42,748 nt of DNA, taken from a virus (taxonomy: Duplodnaviria; Heunggongvirae; Uroviricota; Caudoviricetes). The stretch lies in the IMG/VR virus record IMGVR_UViG_2695420651_000024; one strand, 5' to 3'. Shown here one piece after another: positions 1,866 to 39,177 of the stretch (within the stretch, counting starts at the first letter, position 1; every line of letters begins with the position of its first letter). Under the pieces are notes generated by a model. The model was given only the letters and a program-made list of their open reading frames with translations, did no database searches and was not told the origin of the DNA. The translations under genes and the position numbers were made by a program.

Positions 1866-2419
1866 ATGCTTATTGGCTATGTACGCGTATCAACAAATGA
1901 CCAGAACACCGATCTGCAACGTAATGCACTGAACTGCGCGGGATGTGAGCGGTTTTTTGAGGATAAAATCAGTGGCACTAAGTCCGACAGACCGGGGCTT
2001 AAAAAACTGCTCAGGACACTATCGGCAGGAGACACTCTGGTTGTCTGGAAGCTGGACAGGTTGGGGCGCAGTATGCGGCATCTTGTTACGCTGATAGAAG
2101 AGTTGCGTCAGCGTGGCGTGAATTTCCGAAGCCTGACTGACAGTATTGATACCAGCACCCCAATGGCCGTTTCTTTTTTCATGTCATGGGTGCCCTGGCT
2201 GAAATGGAGCGTGAACTGATTGTTGAACGAACAAAAGCTGGACTGGAAGCTGCTCGCGCACAGGGACGAATTGGCGGTCGCCGTCCCAAACTTTCATCAG
2301 AACAATGGGCGCAGGCCGGGCGACTAATTGCATCAGGCGTTCCTCGCCAGAATGTGGAGATCATCTATGATGTTGGCGTATCGACTTTGTATAAGAAGTT
2401 TCCGGTCGGAGATAAATGA
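1866..2419 (+). pseudogene. pin: Serine DNA invertase (Pin/Gin/Hin family) disrupted by a frameshift
   Basis: N-terminal MLIGYVRVSTNDQNTDLQRNAL...VVWKLDRLGRSM (catalytic Ser region) in one frame (1866..2219); C-terminal GALAEMERELIVERTKAG...GRIGGRRPKL...YDVGVSTLYKK in the next frame (2186..2419). The switch is at about 2163..2170, within ccaatggccgtttc. Confidence 0.8.
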
Positions 2420-2499
2420 AACCGTAGCACGTCGTATGCAAGAACGTGCCACGGCTGGCTGATAAGCTTGTAAAAATATTGAACAGGGAGTGGAGCATT

Positions 2500-3147
2500 C
2501 TATGAAGCTAATTTGTTTAATTTCATTTGTAGTGACTTTACTTCTTGGTCGATAATGTCGAATCCCTTATTGACAGCATCTCTTAGCTCTGCATCAATAT
2601 TTTTTATCCCTTGAGCATAATCTACCATTACATTTATTTTTGCATCATGTAATCTCTTATACATGGTTTTATCTTTGTTATTGTCTGCCATGCCAATAAG
2701 GATTTTTTCATAATCCTCAATGAGTTTGTTGTTTCCTTTAAATGATTGTATTAATGAGCGTGAATATGTGTATATGTTAATTATTGAGTCTCTAGCAGAA
2801 TCATTTAGTTTTGCAATGACATTCGCATTTTGCTCATAGAATGTGAAATTATCATCCCCTACAGGGAATGTGAGAATCAACATTTGTCCCGGTTTTATAT
2901 TATCAATGTGTGTTTTCATCCTTTTATTATATAAATTGATTAGGGTGAAAACTTCTCCCTTAACTCCTTTTAATACTGAAAGTTGTAATTCAAGGGATTC
3001 TCTTTCTGTCTCTACTTTAGACAGCTTAGCTTGTTGGGTAACTCCTTTTAGGGTAAACCATCCGCCAATAAGAGTACCAACTAGAGCTGTGAGGGAGGAG
3101 GATAACCATCCAGGTATGCTATTTAAAAGATTACTAAATTCACTCAT
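2500..3147 (-). CDS. Hypothetical membrane-anchored coiled-coil protein on a low-GC insert
   Basis: 215 aa; one N-terminal TM helix (LLNSIPGWLSSSLTALVGTLIGGWFTL) then K/E/N-rich helical region; DNA visibly AT-rich compared with flanks; sits where a tfa gene would normally follow the fibre gene. Confidence 0.5.
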   Translation of the reverse strand: MSEFSNLLNSIPGWLSSSLTALVGTLIGGWFTLKGVTQQAKLSKVETERESLELQLSVLKGVKGEVFTLINLYNKRMKTHIDNIKPGQMLILTFPVGDDNFTFYEQNANVIAKLNDSARDSIINIYTYSRSLIQSFKGNNKLIEDYEKILIGMADNNKDKTMYKRLHDAKINVMVDYAQGIKNIDAELRDAVNKGFDIIDQEVKSLQMKLNKLAS

Positions 3148-3159
3148 TATAAGTACTCG

Positions 3160-3933
3160 CTAATATTGAACGATATATATATCAGAGGAAGGCACATTAA
3201 GACCGGGTTCGTCCGTTTTAACTATTCCCCCGTCACCGTATGTAGCCAGTATTCCTGGGTTTACTCCTTCCCGTGCACTTCCTGCGGCGAGTCCGTCCCC
3301 TGTCCATAATTCCATATAGTGTGCATGGTCCAAAATTGTGTGTGGCTGCCAATTAAGCAAAGCGCGACCAGTATCAATCCCGCGACCGTCATCCCAGCCA
3401 CGAATAAATTCACCGCGTAAATCAGGCAATTTATTGGTCGGGTAAGCCTTTGCCAGTTCCGGGTATTCTTCAGCAGAAAAAGCCGCACCGTTGCATTTCA
3501 GCCAGCCTGTTGGCGGTGTGACTGAAGGCCACGGAACAGGCACACCAACAGGTAATGCAGAACCTTCTCCCAAACCAAGGTTTTCGAGAGCCGTTTGCAC
3601 AGTGCCATCCGATTTGATATCGCCAAACGGATTCTTGCGGCTCAGGTATTCAACAGCAAACCCCGATCCCAGCAATTCAACAAAACCGGGCAGATCACCA
3701 TTATCAAGCACATCCCGTTGCGTTTTGTCACTTACAAACTGGGCCAGAGCTGCAGCAATAAAGCTGGCCTGTCGAATGGCTTTGTTCACCTGCGCACTGG
3801 ATGCTTTCCCTGCTGTAAATCCGGATAAAAGCGCAGGCAACGCTTCCCATTCCTCCTGCGACATAACATTGGCATTTCGATCAGTTGCAAACGCTTTAAA
3901 GTCATTTTTCGCCATCAGAGTAATACTCCCCAT
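3160..3933 (-). CDS. Tail fibre protein with tail-collar C-terminal domain
   Basis: 257 aa; last gene of the baseplate operon; C-terminal ~110 aa identical to the left-edge fibre fragment (inverted repeat). Confidence 0.7.
3185..3516. repeat. Inverted repeat, right copy (reverse complement of 1..332)
   Basis: See left copy; the identical sequence encodes the C-terminal domain of the 3160..3933 fibre. Confidence 0.85.
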
Positions 3934-4595
3934 GCTCCTACATCAAAACCACTGATGAATTCGTTATCCATATCAAAACCAAAAAATTTTGAGCCTTCCG
4001 ATGGGGTTTCCACCGAAGGAGTTTCAATGCCCCCCGCCCATACCCCGGCGGCTTTTACTGTGAGATACCCCTGTTTAATTGCCGCAATTAACTCACGCGA
4101 TACATCTGAAATATCAGTATCAGGAAAGACCCAGACCGATATCGTCATGTCCTGGTTATCGACTATCTGCATTCGCAGCCCGGATCCTGCTGTTGCCGCG
4201 TCAAGAATTGCCGGAAGCGAATCATTCCGTCCGTCCCAGTTATTAATCGCAATCTTCGCTTTAAGGATGACACGATAAGTTTCATCGCTGAGGTACATGT
4301 ATCCGGAATCAGGATCGTATGGTCCCTGCCATACACCCTGATCATATCCAAGCCCGTCGGTATCCCAGCTGAAATAAACACCTGAGATAGGCTGGCTGAC
4401 AACACGGCTACGTCCGATCCACAATCCCAGAATGTCAAGTTGCACACCAACCGCAGAGTCAATATCAAATGCAGTAATCAGCCCTCTGGTGGCCGCCGCA
4501 ACATCAATAAGCGGCCGGGTCATCAGATCAACATGTGCAAGAAATTTAGGTTTGGTGGCGTGGTAGTTCGTGATTAGTTCGGTGTATTTGCTCAT
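3915..4595 (-). CDS. Baseplate/tail-fibre-proximal protein (Mu gp48-like, DUF2313-type)
   Basis: 226 aa; immediately upstream of the fibre and downstream of the baseplate J-like gene; family assignment from memory. Confidence 0.5.
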
Positions 4596-26407: not shown

Positions 26408-28563
26408 CAAACCTTGCATTTTTTCCCCCCAATTCGCCTTTGGGCACGCTTATACCCGCAATTTTGCAAAACATTACTAATTCGCATTTCTTCGCGTTTT
26501 CCGATGCGGTCAGGATTTAGCCCAATCGCATCACGCAAAACATCACTTGCGCGTAAAAATTCGCAATTTCGCGGAAGTTCATTAGTCATCAGGTCGGGCG
26601 TGTCGAGCCATTTCTCTACCGTTTCAAGCCAAGCATCCTTGATGGTGTACTGTTCATGGACACTCGCTGCCAGTTGTTCAGCCTCACGGAACTGGATACC
26701 CCCCAGACGCTGAAACACCTCACGAGCCTCAGCCCAAAGTAAAAGGAGATCTCTTTTTATCGCTTTCACGTCGACTTTCGACACTTCCACGGGGAGCCAG
26801 CGACGGTTACCAGTCTTGTCCGCAAGGAATTCGTCCTCATTAGTGGTACCAACGAACACCAGGCGACGAGGAAACTGGGTGGCGAACTCCCGGTATTTCG
26901 GGATCCAGTTTTCGTGAGTACGCGTCACAAACGCTTTGATTGACTCCAGCTCTTTGGTATTAAGCCCGCGCAGTTCACCAATCTCTGCCACCAGCCGACC
27001 ACGCATTTTTCGAGCGAGATCATCGTCTTTTTCGGCAAAAGAGATTTCAGTAAAAAACGCAGGATCAGGGCTCAGTGCCTCCACTCCGGAAGACTTACCG
27101 CAGCCCTGCGGACCAACGAGGATCGGCACCATATCCGCTTTGATGCCTGGCTCCAGTACTCGCCCCGCCAACGCGGTCCACATGTACATAGACACCGCAC
27201 GGGTATAAGGCGTGTCGGCGGTACCGAAGTGCGTATGGTAGAAACATTCGATGCGCGGCACGCCATCCCACTCCAGTCCGTTCAGCCAGGTGATCGCTGA
27301 ATCGAATGGTTGTTCATCGGCTGCAAGTAACACCACATCGCGAATAAGTTCACGGCCAACAGGTTTAAATCCCCGCTTTTCCATCGTGATGCGCAGGCGC
27401 GCATAATCCGCATCGGTGAATGCCCGCCATTGTCCGGATCCTGCCGGGGCAAACATGATTTCGTCGCGGAACTGGTCAAAGCGAATATCGATGTCCACAA
27501 AATCAGAGCGTACTACTGCTTTGGCTGCATTGCTGATGGTTGCCTCGATACGCCCCCATTTATCACGCTCGAAAGCAGGCAGCGGTAAAGGTTCCGCCAC
27601 TTCGATGCTGGTCAGATCTTCGAAATCGTCGTTGCGGATCCCGATGGCATTCAGGAAATCTCCGTCATCACGATGCGCGCAACTGGCATGCAGGCATTTA
27701 AAATGCCCCTGCTCAAAGCCTGCGGTTCCCGCAGGAAAATAAACTGTGCTTGTTGGATCGCCTCCGCTACTGTGGCCGTCTTCAAACGGACAGCGGATAT
27801 ATCGTTCACCGTTTGCGCCATCCAGCAGCGTCCAGCCATTGGCATCAAGATATTCAGCTGTATCATCCGTCGCGCCGGGCGTGAATGCTGAACGGTCGCG
27901 CATCTTCGTGTTGCCCGCTTCGGTGGTTACCGACACAGGGAGTTGTTCAGCCAGGCGCTGCCACAGCGTTTCAAGCTGCTCACCTGTAATAGCCGGAGGT
28001 TCATCCGGCAAACCACCGTCCCATTCAATACGCGCGCCGCTGCTGTGCGTACCACAGGCAACGAACTGCTGCCCGTTCGCCAGCAACTCGATAATGCCCA
28101 TATCCCCCGCCAGGCGATGGATACGCTTACGGAAATCACCATCAACGGCCAGCAGATACAGACACTTATTACTGTTTGCTCGCCAGCGTCGCGGCGGCGA
28201 CTCACCCAGAAGTTGCACAAGTGTTTTGCGAATATCTGCCTGAATGTCTTCATCTTCGCTATCGCAGTCCAGCGCCAGCCAGCCATGGCCTGTACGCACG
28301 CAGATGCCATAATCCGGTTCATTCGACCAGCGGGCAAAATCATGCTCAGTAACAACATGCCCGGTCCATTGAGCAATACCTGTGACCTGGCGGTCCCGGT
28401 TATAGCGACTCGGCGTCTTACCCAACGCTTTCAATTTACTATCAGGGGATATGGTCGCACTGGGGTTACATACAACTGGGAGAAGATGAGCAGTCCGCCC
28501 CAATACCAGGTCGAAATGAAACCACTCATCAGGCGTAGCTCCCCATGGTTTGCTATCGGACAT
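26377..28563 (-). CDS. Replication primase-helicase (primase-polymerase N-domain plus D5/P4-alpha-like NTPase)
   Basis: 728 aa; Walker A VGPQGCGKSS; N-terminal prim-pol-like region; first large gene after the Cro-like gene. Confidence 0.75.
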   Translation of the reverse strand: MSDSKPWGATPDEWFHFDLVLGRTAHLLPVVCNPSATISPDSKLKALGKTPSRYNRDRQVTGIAQWTGHVVTEHDFARWSNEPDYGICVRTGHGWLALDCDSEDEDIQADIRKTLVQLLGESPPRRWRANSNKCLYLLAVDGDFRKRIHRLAGDMGIIELLANGQQFVACGTHSSGARIEWDGGLPDEPPAITGEQLETLWQRLAEQLPVSVTTEAGNTKMRDRSAFTPGATDDTAEYLDANGWTLLDGANGERYIRCPFEDGHSSGGDPTSTVYFPAGTAGFEQGHFKCLHASCAHRDDGDFLNAIGIRNDDFEDLTSIEVAEPLPLPAFERDKWGRIEATISNAAKAVVRSDFVDIDIRFDQFRDEIMFAPAGSGQWRAFTDADYARLRITMEKRGFKPVGRELIRDVVLLAADEQPFDSAITWLNGLEWDGVPRIECFYHTHFGTADTPYTRAVSMYMWTALAGRVLEPGIKADMVPILVGPQGCGKSSGVEALSPDPAFFTEISFAEKDDDLARKMRGRLVAEIGELRGLNTKELESIKAFVTRTHENWIPKYREFATQFPRRLVFVGTTNEDEFLADKTGNRRWLPVEVSKVDVKAIKRDLLLLWAEAREVFQRLGGIQFREAEQLAASVHEQYTIKDAWLETVEKWLDTPDLMTNELPRNCEFLRASDVLRDAIGLNPDRIGKREEMRISNVLQNCGYKRAQRRIGGKKCKVWEPLEPRGTT

Positions 28564-28566
28564 GGG

Positions 28567-28767
28567 TTACACCTTTTGTCTAGCTGTCACTTCCTGAAAA
28601 AGTTTTTCTATCGCACGTACTGTAGAAAAGCGAGGGTCAGAATGAACCCCGGTAAGAAGCCGACTAATAGAAGACTGCTTCACGCCTGCAATTTCGGCAA
28701 TTTGGTTTTGGGTATACCCTGAATCAATCAAGCTTTTGACCATCTCTTGTGGTGTTAGTCCGGACAT
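28567..28767 (-). CDS. cro: Cro-like HTH regulator
   Basis: 66 aa; XRE-type HTH (YTQNQIAEIAGVKQSSISRLL); divergent from the CI-like repressor and heading the minus-strand operon. Confidence 0.6.
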   Translation of the reverse strand: MSGLTPQEMVKSLIDSGYTQNQIAEIAGVKQSSISRLLTGVHSDPRFSTVRAIEKLFQEVTARQKV

Positions 28768-28908
28768 ATTTAAGTCTCCACTTTCGTCTATAGCGCAAAT
28801 TTATACGAAAACGGATTACTCAGCAATACAGCAATTCTATGTCATCCTAGATTAAAATATCCGATAACGCATAATCACCGTCCCTGTATACAACATGGAT
28901 GAATCCAA
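28768..28908. promoter_or_regulatory. Divergent repressor/cro promoter-operator region
   Basis: 141-bp gap between divergent cro-like and cI-like genes; contains GATAACGCATAATC (28863..28876), a motif repeated at 29683..29719. Confidence 0.45.
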
Positions 28909-29583
28909 ATGATTGATACTACCGATATCCTTTCTCAAAACATCAAGTACCTGATGGACAAAGCCAAGATAAGCTCGATAACTGAGCTGGCACGTCGGTT
29001 ACAGCTGAACCAACCAACGCTACACAGGCTGGTATCAGGAGAGGTGAAAGATCCGAAATACGCAACGTTAAAGCAGATCGCCGACTACTTCCACGTGTCA
29101 CCAATAGACTTGGCAGAAAGGAGCCTTCAAGAAATGGAGAAAGAGGACGCGACAGGTATAAAAACGTATATTTCTCTTAGGTTTAATAAAGTACCTGTTT
29201 TGGGAAACACTCAGCTAGGCGTTGGAGGACTTTGGAGCGACACCCAATATTCAGTAGGTAGCAGTGATGGTTTCATATACTGGCCGACAAAGGATGAAGA
29301 TGCATACGCCCTGAAATGTGTTGGTGATTCAATGATGCCTAGAATCAAAGAGGGGGAGTTCGTAATCGTCGAACCCAACCACGACTACACTCCTGGTGAT
29401 GAAGTACTTGTGGTTACCCGGGAAGGTGAGGTCATGGTTAAAACCTTCTTGTTCGAACGCGATGGCCTGTTCCATCTAATGTCTGTAAATGAAGATCATC
29501 CACCAGTCAGAGTACCACGCGAAAACATTGAAAAAATCCATTACGTGGCGGGGATCGCCAAATCCGCGCTACGTATGTACTAA
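28909..29583 (+). CDS. cI: CI-like prophage repressor (HTH plus S24/LexA-type autopeptidase domain)
   Basis: 224 aa; N-terminal HTH (ITELARRLQLNQPTLHRLVSG); C-terminal LKCVGDSMMPRIKEGEFVIVEP (Ser) and a downstream Lys, as in LexA/CI. Confidence 0.8.
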   Translation: MIDTTDILSQNIKYLMDKAKISSITELARRLQLNQPTLHRLVSGEVKDPKYATLKQIADYFHVSPIDLAERSLQEMEKEDATGIKTYISLRFNKVPVLGNTQLGVGGLWSDTQYSVGSSDGFIYWPTKDEDAYALKCVGDSMMPRIKEGEFVIVEPNHDYTPGDEVLVVTREGEVMVKTFLFERDGLFHLMSVNEDHPPVRVPRENIEKIHYVAGIAKSALRMY

Positions 29584-29613
29584 CCTTTACAGTCTGATAA
29601 CTTACTTCTGATC

Positions 29614-29646
29614 AAACCGCTCTCCACAAGGGCGGTTTTCTTATTT
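29614..29646 (+). terminator. Putative intrinsic terminator after the repressor gene
   Basis: AAACCGC...GCGGTTT stem followed by TCTTATTT; the loop is long, so only moderate support. Confidence 0.4.
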
Positions 29647-29667
29647 GCAAAATAATTCATTTTCGTA

Positions 29668-29696
29668 TTGACACAAAATCCCATAACGCATATAAA
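29668..29696 (+). promoter_or_regulatory. Near-consensus sigma70 promoter (TTGACA, 17 nt, TATAAA), overlapped by operator-like repeats
   Basis: -35 TTGACA at 29668..29673, 17-nt spacer, -10 TATAAA at 29691..29696. ATAACGCATATAAA overlaps the -10; the near-palindrome CGCATAATTAATGCG lies at 29705..29719. Confidence 0.5.
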
Positions 29697-30001
29697 TACG
29701 ATATCGCATAATTAATGCGTTTTTTAATACTGGCTCTTTAACAAACTGAACCGCGTGACAGGTAAGCCGCAGTACTCCTGGCAAAACGAAATAGCACCCG
29801 ATGGGATCGAGGTAAGCGCCGAGTCCGTATGCGTACGGTAAGCGTAGAGGACAACACCGCGACAAACTGATAAGTCACGCAAGTTGAAACGCCCCGACGA
29901 TGGGGCGCTTAGTTCCTTTTGGGGTGGGGTGAAGATCAGTCCATTGAGTCAATCCGAAGTTCAGCATCTACCACTACACCACCACCAAAGAGAACTGCTA
30001 A

Positions 30002-30526
30002 TCATCTGGCAGGTTGTAACGGTGCAGGAGTTTTGCCACTGACTTCTATATTTCGGGGAAATTTATATTCAGCGGAGCATTTATGACACTTGAGAATTTT
30101 ATAAGCGGCATTAGAAGTATGGTATTGAAGTATAGACTTCATACCCGACTCATAGCATGTAGTACAAAGATAATGAGGCTTGAACTCAGGATCGTCAGTA
30201 GGCTTCAGTACATAGACCACCGTATTGGTAATCGGGTGGTACATTTCATAGTTCATTTTCTCACTATCCCAATCCTGTTTCTTTTCCAGAAGGGATTCGA
30301 GTTCAACAATGCGCTGTTTAGCTTCGTTCAAAAGCTCCGTTAGTGCGAATTGTCCAGTACGCGCATCAATTAGTTTATCAAGTAGATCGATAGTTTTACT
30401 TTTAACATTGTAATCCACCTGCAACGCATTAACTTCTTTTGCTAAATCAACAGCACCTTTCAAAGCACCACCAGCACTAGTGGCCGCCTCAGTTATACGC
30501 CGTACAAGTCCTTTTTCTTCAGACAT
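30002..30526 (-). CDS. Hypothetical protein with N-terminal coiled coil and C-terminal C4 zinc ribbon
   Basis: 174 aa; CTTC...(x20)...CHKC; GC lower than neighbours; sits in the immunity region beside cI, antisense to the strong plus-strand promoter. Confidence 0.5.
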   Translation of the reverse strand: MSEEKGLVRRITEAATSAGGALKGAVDLAKEVNALQVDYNVKSKTIDLLDKLIDARTGQFALTELLNEAKQRIVELESLLEKKQDWDSEKMNYEMYHPITNTVVYVLKPTDDPEFKPHYLCTTCYESGMKSILQYHTSNAAYKILKCHKCSAEYKFPRNIEVSGKTPAPLQPAR

Positions 30527-30665
30527 CTTAATTCTCTCTAAAACTATAGGGGTAAAGAGATATTAGCCGAATTCTCGCTGTAGGGGTACAGAGAGAGCCA
30601 TCTCGTCTGACGTGGTTAAAAGCAGGCATTCGCTGACATCCAAGTAATTGCTGTGTGTAGCCTTT

Positions 30666-30691
30666 GCCCGCCTCAAGTGACGGGCTTTTTT
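30666..30691 (+). terminator. Putative intrinsic terminator upstream of the early operon
   Basis: GCCCG-(10-nt loop)-CGGGC followed by TTTTTT. Confidence 0.4.
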
Positions 30692-30750
30692 ATGTCTGAA
30701 AGCGCACTCGCAACAGCGTGCTCCCCGATATGAAAAAAGGAATACAACCG

Positions 30751-30900
30751 ATGAAACCTGAATACCTCCATCGACTGACGGGGCGCGATGTTCTCCGTTA
30801 TCGCCGTAAAAACTTCGATTTGATGACCGGTCTGGCCGTTGCCACTGCGCTCGGTCTGATCATCACTTTCATTCTCCTTGTAGCGAGGACCACAGTATGA
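30751..30900 (+). CDS. Small membrane protein (49 aa), first gene of the early operon
   Basis: ATG at 30751 preceded by AAGGA; C-terminal TM (LAVATALGLIITFILLV); stop overlaps the next start (ATGA). Confidence 0.35.
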   Translation: MKPEYLHRLTGRDVLRYRRKNFDLMTGLAVATALGLIITFILLVARTTV

Positions 30901-31799
30901 GTTTAGAAACCAGTCTCGAACTTAATAATCAACTTCTGGCACAACATAATGCGCTGCTTGAACGTCTTATCCGCACAATGGCATCAGGCATTGTTATGCA
31001 TCCTGACACGATTTCACGAGTGCAGGAATGTCGGGATACAGCAACTGAAACTGAAAATATGTCAGCGGCAATGACACTGGATGATCTGGAGTTCAGCGAC
31101 GTTATCGCACTGGCTGGTTTCTACCCGGTAGCCACCCCTATCACAGAAGACATGCTGCAACGTGCTGTTGCCTACCGTGATGCTGAAGGCGATAAACGAG
31201 TAGTTCAGATTGATGCTCTCGACAGCGCATTGCAGGGCGTCAAACGAGCCAGGGCGCTGCTTAAACCTGCTCTCCTGGACCTGTCCCGTAACATCCTTAA
31301 GTTCTGGGACGACCTGCCAACCATCGGCGAGCGACGTGTTTTTGCCGAGCAGCTACTTGATGCACCTGCGGATGGGCGTGATGAAGTTAAGCCGAAAAAG
31401 GCCAGTAACAAAGATGGAGAACGCACGGGGCCGTTTTACGTCAAAAATGTATCCGGCACAGCAGCCAGTGAACTCCACACCTTACGCAAGTTGAACGAGA
31501 TGCTGAAAAAAGGCCATATCGAGATCAACCGTGTTGAGTACCTTCAGCTGCAAGAAGAATTTGCACGCAGAGACGCAGCAAATTCCAGCCAGAATCATGA
31601 CGCCAAAGATGACCATACAATTGATTTCGCGGCACTACGCAAACAAGCTGAAGGGTTGATCCTCCAGTTAGCAAAAGGGGGTTACCGGGCAGAAGCTATT
31701 GCAATTCTGGAAAAACAGGGAGCCAGGAAACTTGGTGAAGTAACGGATGAAAATCTCGCTGAAGTAATCACCCTGGCTGAAAAAGCACTGGAGGGTTAA
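30897..31799 (+). CDS. Hypothetical early protein (300 aa)
   Basis: ORF with coupled start; no recognisable motif. Confidence 0.45.
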
Positions 31800-33719: not shown

Positions 33720-34349
33720 TCACTCAGGAATCTTAATCTTCCTCAATTCTTTATTTAGTTCACAGATCTTCTTCTTAGACGGGAAAGTATCATACATCCA
33801 AAAACCAACAGTCTCTAAAACTATTGTCATAACCATATACACAAGATAATTTAAAAGGCCTTCATTTTGCCCTATGGAAATAATGCAGATAATAGAAAAA
33901 AGGATAAACAGCACAAAACACAGAAAGGAAAACAGACGACTAATAATAAATAAAAAACCTGAAAAATTAACATTGATGAAAAACACTCCGTTATCTTTCT
34001 CTATATAATTCTGAAGCTTAATCACCTGATTTATATACTGTCTTTTTTCTAATCTATTGCAAATGTAAATAACATCACTTCGGTTATAAGAAGATTGCAA
34101 TTTCAGCGCATCACGAATAATTTTATCATTTATTCTTTTTTCTATGGCACTCTTATCCTCCTTATCCAGATAACGTTCATACTTAACTAAATATAAAATT
34201 AACTTCTTGACATATTTAGGCTCTTTATACTTATAATTAAAAATGATCTTTCTTATCCAGACTCCCATAACAATCAAACATGAAAAAATATATCCAGCTA
34301 TTTTCTCCAGATGCTCTGTATGGTCAATCAAGTATTGGATCATATGCAT
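33720..34349 (-). CDS. Hypothetical polytopic membrane protein on a low-GC insert, opposite strand to the early operon
   Basis: 209 aa; TM near the N-terminus, K/E/Y-rich cytoplasmic region, then a long hydrophobic stretch (FSGFLFIISRLFSFLCFVLFILFSIICIISIG) and a further TM; very AT-rich DNA. Confidence 0.5.
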   Translation of the reverse strand: MHMIQYLIDHTEHLEKIAGYIFSCLIVMGVWIRKIIFNYKYKEPKYVKKLILYLVKYERYLDKEDKSAIEKRINDKIIRDALKLQSSYNRSDVIYICNRLEKRQYINQVIKLQNYIEKDNGVFFINVNFSGFLFIISRLFSFLCFVLFILFSIICIISIGQNEGLLNYLVYMVMTIVLETVGFWMYDTFPSKKKICELNKELRKIKIPE

Positions 34350-36459: not shown

Positions 36460-36464
36460 CTCCT

Positions 36465-36680
36465 ATGTCATTTAAATACCGGGACAATCCACTTTATTAC
36501 AGGGCTGCAAGGGAGGCTTTGCGACTTGAACAATCCGGCGAATATGACCGGGCAGCGAAGGTCTGGGCAAAAGCCAACCGCGAATCACATCACGAACTGA
36601 ATCAGGAATGGAGTGAACGCAGATCTGATTTTTGCCTGATGCAGAATATGCGTGAAAAGCGTAAGGCGGTCGAAGAATGA
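36465..36680 (+). CDS. Small hypothetical protein (71 aa)
   Basis: ORF only. Confidence 0.35.
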   Translation: MSFKYRDNPLYYRAAREALRLEQSGEYDRAAKVWAKANRESHHELNQEWSERRSDFCLMQNMREKRKAVEE

Positions 36681-36976
36681 TCGTTTACGTTGCCGGGCCG
36701 ATGAGCGGTTACGAGCAATTTAACCGCCCGGCCTTTCATTCCGCAGCAAAGAGGCTAACGGACAAGGGATATGTTGTGCTTAACCCCGCAACTTTACCCG
36801 ATGGTTTGACACAGGCTCAGTACATGGACATCTGCCTCGCAATGCTTCGCTGTGCCGATACGATTTATATGCTCAAAGAGTGGGAGTACTCTGCCGGCGC
36901 ACGTGCAGAAAACGCGTTGGCAGAGAAACTGGTATTGAATGTGCTTTTTGAAGAGTGGGATTCAGATGGCCTATGA
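36677..36976 (+). CDS. DUF4406-like protein (nucleoside deoxyribosyltransferase-like fold)
   Basis: 99 aa; MIVYVAGPMSGYEQFNRPAFH... N-terminus typical of this family, from memory. Confidence 0.5.
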   Translation: MIVYVAGPMSGYEQFNRPAFHSAAKRLTDKGYVVLNPATLPDGLTQAQYMDICLAMLRCADTIYMLKEWEYSAGARAENALAEKLVLNVLFEEWDSDGL

Positions 36977-38247: not shown

Positions 38248-39177
38248 TTATGGGTTAGGTAATGCACGATTATTAAAATTATCAATAATTTGCAACGCCG
38301 CCGTTTGTCCGCCAGCCAATAGCCCTGCTTTACTCAGAAGGTATTTAGGGAATTTGGTTGGTAAATAAACCGCACGAAGCCAGTGCCTGAATACAGCTAA
38401 AGCATTATCAGGGTATGCATAGACCATTTGGGGATTACTTGCGGATTGGTTGAATTCTTCAGGGTAATAGTGCTGGCAGCGTTGTCTTGGGCCAATCGTC
38501 GCATCGTAGTTGGAAGAAGACCAGTAGCGAGCCCAGTGCTGGCCCACACTGATATCCGGTACAGTGTACTGGTTTACTGCTAATCCAGCATGGATGAGGT
38601 CTACCATTAAACCAGCAATTTCATTGAATACAATGAAGTGTCCAGCAGGAACCGAGTTTGCCCCATGCATGATTGACACACGAGAGTGGTAATGACGCCA
38701 AGGGTCATCAGGTATGTAGCCAAGCGCTGTATAGATGTAACCACGCATACCCGCACGGGATAGCTCGCGGAAAAACTGTAGCGCAGTAGGAGTTGCAGCA
38801 CTTTGAGATACAAATGCGTAGAACTCCAGAATAGCCATACAGACTACTTCTGGGTACGCATAATGGACTGACCCATCTTTGTTGATTGGGATATAAAGAG
38901 TCGGCTCATTATATTGCTCACGCTGTAAATATGAGCTGATAAACTCCATACGCCCTCGAGCGAAAACTCCGTGGCGGAAGCTCTCTTCCCACTCTCGAGA
39001 AATATCCGCGATATTACTGCGATGCACCCCGCAAATCCTAGCCAGCCCATTTTGCGTAAGGTAGGAGATCCCGTTCTGAAGAACCCCCATTTCTATTTCG
39101 TTAAAAACCCCCTCAGTACTAACACCTAAGTCCAGTACTTGTTGGGGTGCGGGTTGCTGACCACCAAATTCACTCAT
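38248..39177 (-). CDS. Hypothetical protein with N-terminal HTH-like segment, opposite strand to the early operon
   Basis: 309 aa; NGISYLTQNGLARICGVHRSNIADISREW looks like a DNA-binding helix-turn-helix; convergent with the MTase gene and divergent from the SNF2 gene. Confidence 0.45.
   Translation of the reverse strand: MSEFGGQQPAPQQVLDLGVSTEGVFNEIEMGVLQNGISYLTQNGLARICGVHRSNIADISREWEESFRHGVFARGRMEFISSYLQREQYNEPTLYIPINKDGSVHYAYPEVVCMAILEFYAFVSQSAATPTALQFFRELSRAGMRGYIYTALGYIPDDPWRHYHSRVSIMHGANSVPAGHFIVFNEIAGLMVDLIHAGLAVNQYTVPDISVGQHWARYWSSSNYDATIGPRQRCQHYYPEEFNQSASNPQMVYAYPDNALAVFRHWLRAVYLPTKFPKYLLSKAGLLAGGQTAALQIIDNFNNRALPNP

What the first reader, a model, noticed from the sequence alone, without database searches (positions are those of the whole stretch)
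30002..30526. Zinc-ribbon/coiled-coil gene in the immunity region, convergent with cI
The 174-aa product has an N-terminal helical region and a C-terminal CTTC-x20-CHKC zinc ribbon. The gene has lower GC than its neighbours and occupies the cI-adjacent slot where lambdoid prophages carry exclusion or defence genes (rexAB, sieB and similar). A candidate promoter (-10 TATAGT, complement of 30544..30549) lies just upstream. I do not recognise the protein.
Basis: partly seen in the sequence, partly recalled or inferred. Interest (0 to 1): 0.55.

Follow-up and report, generated by a model that had tools for sequence, protein, structure and literature searches.

The report
Prophage Rip1-type pore-forming defence gene
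The gene is real and encodes an uncharacterised relative of Rip1, a recently described prophage protein that detects ring-shaped assembly proteins of an invading phage and kills the cell by forming a membrane pore; here it sits behind the promoter region that other phages use for the exclusion gene sieB.

Summary
The ORF at 30002..30526 (- strand, 174 aa) is a real, conserved gene in an E. coli prophage. Pfam, NCBIfam and PADLOC (2023) do not recognise it. It does match the solved structure 9oox, "ring interacting pore 1 (Rip1)" of phage HK446 bound to the T6 small terminase: E = 8e-45 over residues 3-159, and the AlphaFold model superposes with TM 0.84 at 47 % identity. Rip1 (Patel et al., Nature 2026) is a single-protein abortive-infection defence. 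Its C-terminal half binds rings of phage small terminase or portal, and twelve copies assemble into a membrane pore.

The family is already known, so this is a new member of a known kind.

Three further points emerged:
- The roughly 110 nt upstream of the gene is the conserved sieB promoter/leader of lambda and P22. Mapping the annotated P22 promoter gives a -10 TAATAT at 30560..30565 and a start at 30553.
- The gene lies antisense between a cI-operator-bearing, PL-like promoter (29668..29696) and the early operon.
- The slot varies among related prophages: it holds this allele, a 189-aa allele with 45 % identity, or no Rip1 gene.

The parts
30002..30526 (-). rip1-like gene, 174 aa. It has an N-terminal small-residue helix (about residues 2-34), a long helix (39-90) and a C-terminal beta domain with a Cys4 site (C121, C124, C147, C150).
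   Evidence: ORF. PDB 9oox Rip1 at E = 8.4e-45 for the single sequence and 1.1e-69 for the profile. Foldseek hit 9oox_M at E = 2.5e-11, TM 0.84, rmsd 2.3 A. AlphaFold model. Conservation.
30527..30640 (-). Conserved sieB-type upstream cassette element: GCCTG..CAGGC stem region, GGTGG box and two ACCCCTAyAG repeats flanking the -10. It travels with the gene.
   Evidence: Conserved upstream of rip1 genes in E. coli, Pantoea, Yersinia and Morganella, and upstream of sieB in lambda and P22. In IMG/VR the motif precedes SieB-like ORFs in 68 loci and Rip1-like ORFs in 21. The right-hand boundary of the variable cassette is at about 30640.
30553..30590 (-). Inferred PsieB-type promoter: -35 TGTACC 30585..30590, -10 TAATAT 30560..30565, transcription start A at 30553, giving a 27-nt 5' UTR with a GAGAG Shine-Dalgarno.
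   Evidence: Alignment with the sieB promoter (29690..29720) and sieB RNA start site (29727) annotated in the P22 record NC_002371. T1, A2 and T6 of the -10 are invariant in 50 aligned elements.
29887..29910 (-). Hairpin downstream of the gene (AAGCGCCCC-AUCGUC-GGGGCGUUU). It is the probable terminator and the left boundary of the variable cassette.
   Evidence: Fold. Homology with the 189-aa-allele phage and with a rip1-less prophage stops just 3' of this hairpin.
29668..29711 (+). Context: PL-like early promoter (TTGACA, 17 nt, TATAAA) overlapped by two operator-like 16-mers (29678, 29696). It points through the rip1 gene in antisense towards the early operon that starts near 30718.
   Evidence: The 16-mers match the site at 28859 in the cro/cI intergenic region with 2 mismatches each. 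About 0.02 such matches are expected by chance in the window (my own calculation, not a tool output). Its role as the early promoter is inferred.
28909..29638 (+). Context: cI-type repressor gene (28909..29583) and its intrinsic terminator (29614..29638).
   Evidence: Pfam HTH_26/HTH_3 plus Peptidase_S24. Terminator scan.

Best explanation
The gene encodes a Rip1-family (ring interacting pore) abortive-infection protein carried as an accessory gene by an E. coli prophage.

Proposed mechanism: in the lysogen the gene is transcribed from its own sieB-type promoter, and the protein stays inactive. When another phage infects and reaches late gene expression, the long helix and the Cys4 C-terminal domain of Rip1 bind around the ring-shaped oligomer of a phage assembly protein, either small terminase or portal. 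The ring templates about 12 Rip1 copies, whose N-terminal helices form a pore in the inner membrane. The cell is permeabilised before progeny are finished.

Shown here: family membership by sequence and by fold, conservation of the Cys4 site, the prophage context, the sieB-type upstream element, and the variability of the slot. Taken from the literature on HK446 and Pseudomonas Rip1: the sensing of terminase or portal rings, the 12-on-11 assembly and the pore. Inferred for this allele: its activity, its trigger, expression in the lysogen, and silencing by antisense early transcription when the prophage itself is induced.
For: Sequence: phmmer against PDB gives 9oox 'ring interacting pore 1 (Rip1)' at E = 8.4e-45, residues 3-159 against 3-160 of 164; the family profile gives 1.1e-69.

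Fold: the AlphaFold model (pLDDT 78.6) matches 9oox_M, 'HK446 Rip1 in complex with T6 small terminase', at E = 2.5e-11, TM 0.84, rmsd 2.3 A and 47 % identity. No other PDB entry reaches E < 0.5.

Family: tblastn finds homologues in HK446 and in 31 Pseudomonas phage records, including JBD30, DMS3 and D3112. JBD30 gp30 lies between a terS-like gene and terL, which is where the review places the original Pseudomonas Rip1. All four cysteines and W86, Y93 and Y105 are conserved out to these relatives.

Function of the family: review PMC13434031, section 5; also PMC13601566 and PMC12908700.

Context: the upstream 110 nt equals the sieB promoter/leader of P22 and lambda, and sieB is among the four systems that PMC10883804 describes as expressed from the P22 prophage in a lysogen. 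Every homologue inspected except the Edwardsiella one (whose 5' neighbour is co-oriented) lies antisense to the flanking lytic or early genes. The gene is present, allelic or absent in near-identical prophages.
Against: No experiment exists for this allele, which is only 47-48 % identical to the characterised HK446 protein and about 30 % identical to the Pseudomonas proteins, so its trigger specificity is unknown.

The window's copy of the upstream element has three substitutions at positions that are 96-100 % invariant elsewhere (CAGGC to CAGAC; GGTGGTT to GATGGCT). Expression could therefore be altered.

The -35 of the inferred promoter is poor (TGTACC), and the generic promoter scan found nothing there.

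The hydrophobic moment of the N-terminal helix (0.49) is within the range of shuffled sequences (95th percentile 0.53), so amphipathicity is not demonstrated by that crude test.

Zinc binding is inferred from the Cys4 pattern only. I could not read the primary paper, so details of the mechanism rest on a review.
Confidence: 0.85

Rival explanations
1. It is a DksA/TraR-like or other zinc-finger transcription factor (coiled coil plus C4 finger) that regulates the adjacent early promoter or the lysis-lysogeny decision.
For: The gross architecture, long helices followed by CxxC-x22-CxxC, resembles DksA/TraR proteins, which phages often carry (my own knowledge). The gene lies next to the repressor and to early promoters.
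Against: There is no Pfam or NCBIfam hit to zf-dskA_traR or to any DNA-binding family even at E <= 10. The only significant sequence and fold match is Rip1. The gene is dispensable: related prophages with the same cI lack it.
Confidence: 0.03
2. It is a Rip1-family gene that is decaying or silent in this lineage: a relic in a defective prophage that no longer gives protection.
For: The window's portal gene carries a premature stop, W186*. The upstream element has three substitutions at otherwise near-invariant positions.
Against: The ORF is intact, keeps every invariant family residue, and the 1.5-kb query spanning it is 100 % identical in the 15 listed genomes, and at least 99 % in 20 in all. 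The portal stop is private to the window: the otherwise identical prophages in H10407, 12009 and others have an intact portal. The -10, the start region and the Shine-Dalgarno are kept.
Confidence: 0.08
3. It is a Rip1-fold protein with a different job, for example control of the prophage's own packaging or lysis timing by binding its own terminase or portal ring, rather than defence against other phages.
For: The known ligands are packaging proteins. In the JBD30-type phages the gene sits inside the packaging module.
Against: The gene is absent from close relatives that are viable phages or prophages. It is antisense to lytic transcription and sits behind a promoter type that PMC10883804 describes as prophage-expressed in P22. 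The prophage's own TerS is a Terminase_2-family protein and gave no match at E <= 1 to any 9oox chain, which includes the T6 terminase.
Confidence: 0.04

Closest known systems
Rip1 (ring interacting pore 1): HK446 gp37 (PDB 9oox) and Pseudomonas JBD30-type gp30 (Patel et al., Nature 2026, doi 10.1038/s41586-025-10075-1)
   Same: Full-length sequence homology, the same predicted fold, the same four cysteines, similar size (164-189 aa), a prophage-encoded single gene, and antisense placement within lytic or early operons.
   Different: It is 47-48 % identical to HK446 Rip1 and about 30 % identical to the Pseudomonas proteins, and it has a 15-residue Pro-rich C-terminal tail that HK446 lacks. It is carried by a non-lambdoid prophage (PolA, DUF2800, VapE primase, myovirus-type) that has no N gene, next to cI rather than next to N or between terS and terL. 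Its trigger and activity are untested.
SieB (lambda and P22 superinfection exclusion B, Pfam PF14163)
   Same: The same about 110-nt promoter/leader element, the same slot and antisense orientation in the early-left region, prophage expression in P22 (as described in PMC10883804), and an abortive-infection phenotype in mid to late infection.
   Different: The protein is unrelated: SieB is a polytopic membrane protein without the Cys4 domain. P22 sieB also encodes the internal Esc product; the Rip1 gene has no equivalent internal start near codon 25 (sequence).
RexAB of lambda
   Same: A cI-adjacent, lysogen-expressed abortive-infection system that acts by damaging membrane integrity (my own knowledge).
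   Different: RexAB is a two-component system co-transcribed with cI and has no sequence similarity. Here a single gene has its own promoter on the opposite strand.
BstA (prophage abortive-infection protein with built-in self-immunity)
   Same: A single-gene prophage defence that must spare its own phage. A BstA homologue is present in the same window at 38248..39177.
   Different: An unrelated HTH-containing protein with a different mechanism, and self-immunity through a DNA element (aba) (my own knowledge).
DksA/TraR C4 zinc-finger proteins
   Same: Helical hairpin or coiled coil followed by a CxxC...CxxC site.
   Different: No detectable sequence or structural similarity.

Membership tests
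Rip1 (ring interacting pore 1) | Full-length sequence homology to an experimentally characterised Rip1 | tested here: met
   9oox chain L at E = 8.4e-45, residues 3-159 against 3-160; profile E = 1.1e-69. tblastn to HK446 gp37 gives 47.5 % identity over 91 % of the query, and to JBD30 gp30 about 31 %.
Rip1 (ring interacting pore 1) | Same three-dimensional fold: long helix plus C-terminal ring-binding domain | tested here: met
   Foldseek of the AlphaFold model against PDB gives 9oox_M at E = 2.5e-11, TM (target) 0.84 and rmsd 2.3 A over 121 columns. The next unrelated hit has E = 0.5.
Rip1 (ring interacting pore 1) | N-terminal amphipathic helix that forms the pore | tested here: inconclusive
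   A helix is predicted for residues 2-34, with a conserved small-residue motif (SAGGALKGAV). The hydrophobic moment of 0.49 is not above shuffled controls (mean 0.38, 95th percentile 0.53).
Rip1 (ring interacting pore 1) | Single gene carried by a prophage | tested here: met
   The window is an E. coli prophage. No conserved partner gene accompanies the homologue across the contexts inspected.
Rip1 (ring interacting pore 1) | Binds oligomeric rings of phage small terminase or portal and assembles into a roughly 12-mer pore; not toxic alone; protects against phage | not testable with these tools
   Known for HK446 and Pseudomonas Rip1 only through the review PMC13434031 and the title of PDB 9oox. 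No experiment exists for this allele.
SieB (PF14163) | SieB protein domain | tested here: not met
   There is no Pfam hit at E <= 10, and the proteins are unrelated. Only the upstream regulatory element and the slot are shared.
sieB-type promoter/leader cassette | Conserved element with TGTACCCCTACAG, a -10, and ACCCCTACAG at the mapped RNA start | tested here: met
   Alignment with P22 and lambda and with 43 further distinct elements. The window copy keeps both repeats and the -10 but has three substitutions in the distal stem and GGTGG region.
DksA/TraR zinc-finger family | zf-dskA_traR domain | tested here: not met
   No hit in Pfam or NCBIfam, and no structural match.

The most novel reading that the evidence does not exclude
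Rip1 and SieB may be interchangeable cargo of one mobile regulatory cassette, the roughly 110-nt PsieB promoter/leader, always placed antisense inside an early or lytic operon. On this reading the cassette supplies lysogen expression and also self-immunity, because the resident phage's own early transcription, or a sas-like antisense RNA, shuts the abortive gene off on induction. The cassette would have jumped from lambdoid PL operons into an unrelated PolA-type myovirus prophage. There, two alleles with 45 % identity at the same site would recognise different terminase or portal rings.
Probability: 0.3. Interest if true: 0.55.

Novelty: new member of a known kind. Interest (0 to 1): 0.35.

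Why it matters
The result turns a "hypothetical protein" into a testable defence gene. That protein is found in about 26 of 5426 complete E. coli genomes, including ETEC H10407 and the O103:H2 strain 12009, and a second allele is found in 49 more. This allele comes from a different phage lineage than the characterised Rip1 proteins, and it pairs with a divergent allele at the same locus, which gives a natural experiment on how the sensor domain sets trigger specificity.

The shared sieB promoter/leader suggests that a common regulatory module is reused for unrelated abortive-infection genes. That bears on how prophages avoid killing themselves with their own defences. None of this overturns current understanding, because the protein family and its mechanism were published in 2026.

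Tried and rejected
Family libraries: Pfam, NCBIfam and PADLOC v2 (2023) gave no significant hit for the protein. PHROGs gave only an unnamed family of unknown function, phrog_1244.

Rfam: a scan of 28400-31000 gave a sub-threshold RprA-like hit at 30582..30695 (+) (45.5 bits against a gathering score of 70) and a trivial mir-22 hit. The left half of the RprA-like stretch is not conserved in rip1-less relatives and its right half is a backbone hairpin, so I treat it as spurious.

A first search for operators shared between the cro/cI region and the region just upstream of rip1 found nothing. The operator-like repeats lie instead in the cI-rip1 gap.

RNA structure: the cI-rip1 leader gave no signal on the + strand (z = +0.7) and a modest one on the - strand (z = -2.1). 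RNAalifold on 50 upstream elements gave one compensatory pair and a covariation term near 0, so RNA-level and DNA-level function of the element cannot be separated.

Helix: the hydrophobic-moment test of the N-terminal helix was inconclusive.

Literature: Patel et al. 2026 and the Ranade and Poteete sieB papers are not held. No paper mentions WP_001288046 or phrog_1244.

Full report
1. Observation.

The ORF 30002..30526 (- strand, ATG start, 174 aa) exists as described. It is convergent with a repressor gene at 28909..29583 (+) whose product has Cro/C1 HTH and Peptidase_S24 domains. A divergent cro-like HTH gene (28567..28767, -) heads an operon with a VapE-type primase, a Q antiterminator, lysis genes and terminase.

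The AlphaFold model, built on 52 homologues with mean pLDDT 78.6, has helices at 2-34 and 39-90, followed by a small beta domain at 93-157. The cysteine motif is C121-TT-C124, 22 residues, C147-HK-C150, so the spacer is x22 and not x20. C121 and C124 are invariant, and C147 and C150 are kept in at least 90 % of 52 homologues. The motif is also kept in Pseudomonas phage JBD30 gp30.

GC is 0.41 and GC3 is 0.34. This compares with 0.456 for cI, 0.44 for cro, 0.48-0.54 for the replication genes and 0.50 for the window.

2. Where the window comes from.

The 1.5 kb around the gene is 100 % identical to prophages in E. coli ETEC H10407, O103:H2 12009 and others, and 26 of 5426 complete genomes carry at least 80 % of it. 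It is about 96 % identical in its flanks to the induced phages vB_EcoM-606R2, 689R2 and 611R5.

The phage has a replication module of family A DNA polymerase, DUF2800 (PD-(D/E)XK), Enc34-type SSB and VRR-NUC. It has a Q antiterminator but no recognisable N.

3. What the protein is.

Pfam, NCBIfam and PADLOC-DB v2 (2023) give nothing significant. PHROGs places the protein in phrog_1244, of unknown function, at 1.8e-43.

A search of PDB sequences gives one strong hit: 9oox, "ring interacting pore 1 (Rip1)". The single sequence scores E = 8.4e-45, aligning residues 3-159 with 3-160 of 164, and the family profile scores 1.1e-69.

Foldseek of the model against the PDB returns 9oox chains M and L, [quoted passage not shown]. 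The best scores are E = 2.5e-11, TM 0.84 normalised on the target, rmsd 2.3 A and 47 % identity. Nothing else reaches E < 0.5.

tblastn against phage genomes finds 42 records:
- HK446 gp37, ev099 and vB_EcoP-720R6, at about 48 % identity.
- The 606R2-type allele, at 44 %.
- 31 Pseudomonas phage records, including JBD30, DMS3, MP38 and D3112 orf25, at about 30 %.

In JBD30 the gene lies between a terS-like "DNA binding protein" gene and terL. The review places the original Pseudomonas Rip1 in that position.

The family is large: 4174 50 %-identity representatives at E <= 1e-3, of which 2980 are at E <= 1e-10.

4. What Rip1 does (from the literature, not tested here).

The source is the review PMC13434031, section 5, which summarises Patel et al., Nature 651:1060 (2026); I could not access the primary paper. 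According to the review:
- It is not toxic on its own.
- Escaper phages carry mutations in portal (Pseudomonas phages) or small terminase (E. coli phages).
- Cryo-EM shows an 11-mer small-terminase ring surrounded by 12 Rip1 molecules.
- The N-terminal part is an amphipathic helix, and the C-terminal half contacts the ring.
- The complex forms a pore, releases dye from liposomes and makes holes in cells, so the infected cell lyses before phage maturation is complete.

PMC13601566 and PMC12908700 give consistent one-line descriptions.

5. Regulation and context (new here).

(a) The upstream element. The about 110 nt upstream of the start codon (30527..30640, - strand) is far better conserved than the protein. 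The same element precedes the rip1 homologues of 606R2, HK446, 720R6 and of Pantoea, Yersinia and Morganella prophages, whose proteins are only 37-57 % identical (alignment identities). Its consensus is GCCTG(y)CTTTTAACCACrTCAGGC..GGTGGTTCTC.TGTACCCCTACAGCGAGAA.., then a TAnnnT hexamer, then ACCCCTACAG, a Shine-Dalgarno sequence and ATG.

The same element precedes sieB in lambda and P22. The ORF immediately downstream falls into these classes:
- SieB-like in 68 loci (Pfam PF14163 hit on 3 of the 4 member sequences scanned from this cluster).
- Rip1-like in 21 loci.
- Dubious small ORFs in 14 loci.
- An unknown 83-aa protein in 3 loci.

The P22 GenBank record annotates the sieB promoter at 29690..29720 and the sieB RNA start at 29727. 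Transferred by alignment, these correspond in the window to -35 TGTACC at 30585..30590, -10 TAATAT at 30560..30565 and a start at A 30553, which leaves a 27-nt leader. T1, A2 and T6 of the -10 are invariant in 50 aligned elements.

In most relatives that stretch reads TACAGA or TACAGT. sieB is among the four systems that PMC10883804 describes as expressed from the P22 prophage in a lysogen. Expression of this gene in the lysogen is therefore a reasonable inference but has not been shown.

(b) The PL-like promoter. Between cI and the gene lies a strong cI terminator (29614..29638). After it comes a consensus-like + strand promoter: TTGACA at 29668..29673, a 17-nt spacer and TATAAA at 29691..29696. 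Two 16-mers overlap it, at 29678 and 29696. Each matches the site at 28859 in the cro/cI intergenic region with two mismatches, and about 0.02 such matches are expected by chance (my own calculation).

I read this as the repressor-controlled early-left (PL-like) promoter. Its transcript would run antisense through the gene towards the early operon that begins near 30718. This is the geometry of sieB and of HK446 rip1 inside the lambdoid PL operon, convergent with N.

It suggests, by inference only, that induction of the prophage silences its own Rip1 by convergent transcription. This would parallel the sas antisense RNA that lets P22 escape its own SieB (PMC12197685).

(c) The variable slot. 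In 606R2-type phages the flanks are 96-98 % identical, but the ORF is replaced by a 189-aa allele that is 45-46 % identical at the protein level. Divergence begins after codon 6 and ends at the downstream hairpin at 29887..29910. That allele is found in 49 complete E. coli genomes.

Related prophages L006, L007 and L008 have no Rip1-like sequence at all (tblastn). L008, which has an equivalent 224-aa repressor at this position and identical sequence through the operator region, carries an unrelated segment of about 330 bp between the same boundaries, about 29910 and 30640. The unit that comes and goes is thus promoter element plus ORF plus terminator.

6. Caveats.
- The window's copy of the upstream element has three changes at near-invariant positions (CAGGC to CAGAC; GGTGGTT to GATGGCT). 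The single stem that shows a compensatory change in other copies (GCCUG/CAGGC) is therefore weakened here.
- Overall covariation is negligible, so I cannot say whether the element acts as DNA or as RNA.
- The amphipathicity test of the N-terminal helix was inconclusive.
- The prophage's own small terminase is a Terminase_2-family protein that gave no hit at E <= 1 to any 9oox chain, which includes the T6 terminase. The trigger of this allele is unknown.

7. Comparison and verdict.

The protein meets the testable membership criteria for Rip1: sequence, fold, Cys4 site and prophage single-gene context. The functional criteria cannot be tested in silico. The protein is not SieB, but it shares sieB's regulatory cassette and slot. 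It is not a DksA/TraR-type factor.

Because the family and its mechanism were published in 2026, this is a new, uncharacterised member of a known kind.

Modest added interest comes from three things: the reuse of the sieB promoter cassette, the transfer of that cassette into a non-lambdoid prophage, and the allelic replacement at one locus. I rate interest at 0.35.

Noticed in passing
window 38248..39177 (-): The 309-aa ORF is a BstA homologue (PADLOC PDLC02356, E = 2.5e-110; no Pfam hit). BstA is a known prophage abortive-infection protein, so this prophage carries at least two defence genes.
   Followed up: partly
window 19793..21259 (-), stop codon at 20702..20704: The portal gene (Phage_portal_3 / DUF1073) is split by a nonsense codon, W186*. 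Phage 606R2 has an intact 488-aa portal, and the best-matching complete E. coli genomes listed (17 at 99.9 % identity, one mismatch) carry an annotated DUF1073 portal gene under the match, shown as an intact 488-aa CDS in H10407. The stop is private to the window's source, so this copy of the prophage may be defective.
   Followed up: yes
window 29668..29711 (+): A consensus-like promoter (TTGACA, 17 nt, TATAAA) is overlapped by two operator-like 16-mers that match a site in the cro/cI intergenic region (28859; a weaker copy lies at 28803). It is probably the repressor-controlled early-left promoter, reading antisense through the rip1-like gene.
   Followed up: partly
window 29712..29890: This untranslated stretch of about 180 nt is 98 % conserved in relatives with the same immunity type, including rip1-less ones. 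The - strand RNA folds better than shuffles (z = -2.1) and the + strand does not (z = +0.7). There is no Rfam hit, and the function is unknown (a leader, an sRNA or a cis-acting antitermination element?).
   Followed up: partly
window 30582..30695 (+): A sub-threshold Rfam RprA-like match (45.5 bits against a gathering score of 70, E = 8e-4) ends in a + strand hairpin at 30666..30685 followed by T6. The hairpin belongs to the phage backbone and is kept in rip1-less relatives; the left half is the antisense of the sieB-type element. The match is probably spurious, but a sas-like antisense RNA ending at this terminator is not excluded.
   Followed up: partly
window 33720..34349 (-): A 209-aa predicted multi-pass membrane protein has a very low GC of 0.295 and is encoded antisense inside the replication operon. 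It belongs to phrog_10579 (unknown function), has no significant NCBIfam or PADLOC hit (Pfam was not run on it), and is also present in the relatives L001, L002 and L006. It is a candidate moron or exclusion gene.
   Followed up: partly
L009 (phage 606R2) 38874..39635, compared with window 36460..36965: 606R2 carries a gene annotated as a TIR-like domain protein just after the DNA polymerase gene. The window has no counterpart, so this is a second variable, possibly defence-related, slot in this phage lineage.
   Followed up: no
L017 / L018 (Edwardsiella) 2406..4525: The Edwardsiella homologue (76 % identical) is also convergent with cI but lacks the sieB-type upstream element. It is preceded by a co-oriented gene of 502-510 aa with a faint ORC/CDC6-like hit, so a two-gene arrangement is possible.
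   Followed up: no
L008 (E. coli OkiPb01695) about 2910..3240; L007 2734..2940: Rip1-less relatives carry other short content in the same slot: an unrelated segment of about 330 bp with a small + strand ORF in L008, and an annotated 68-aa hypothetical protein in L007.
   Followed up: no
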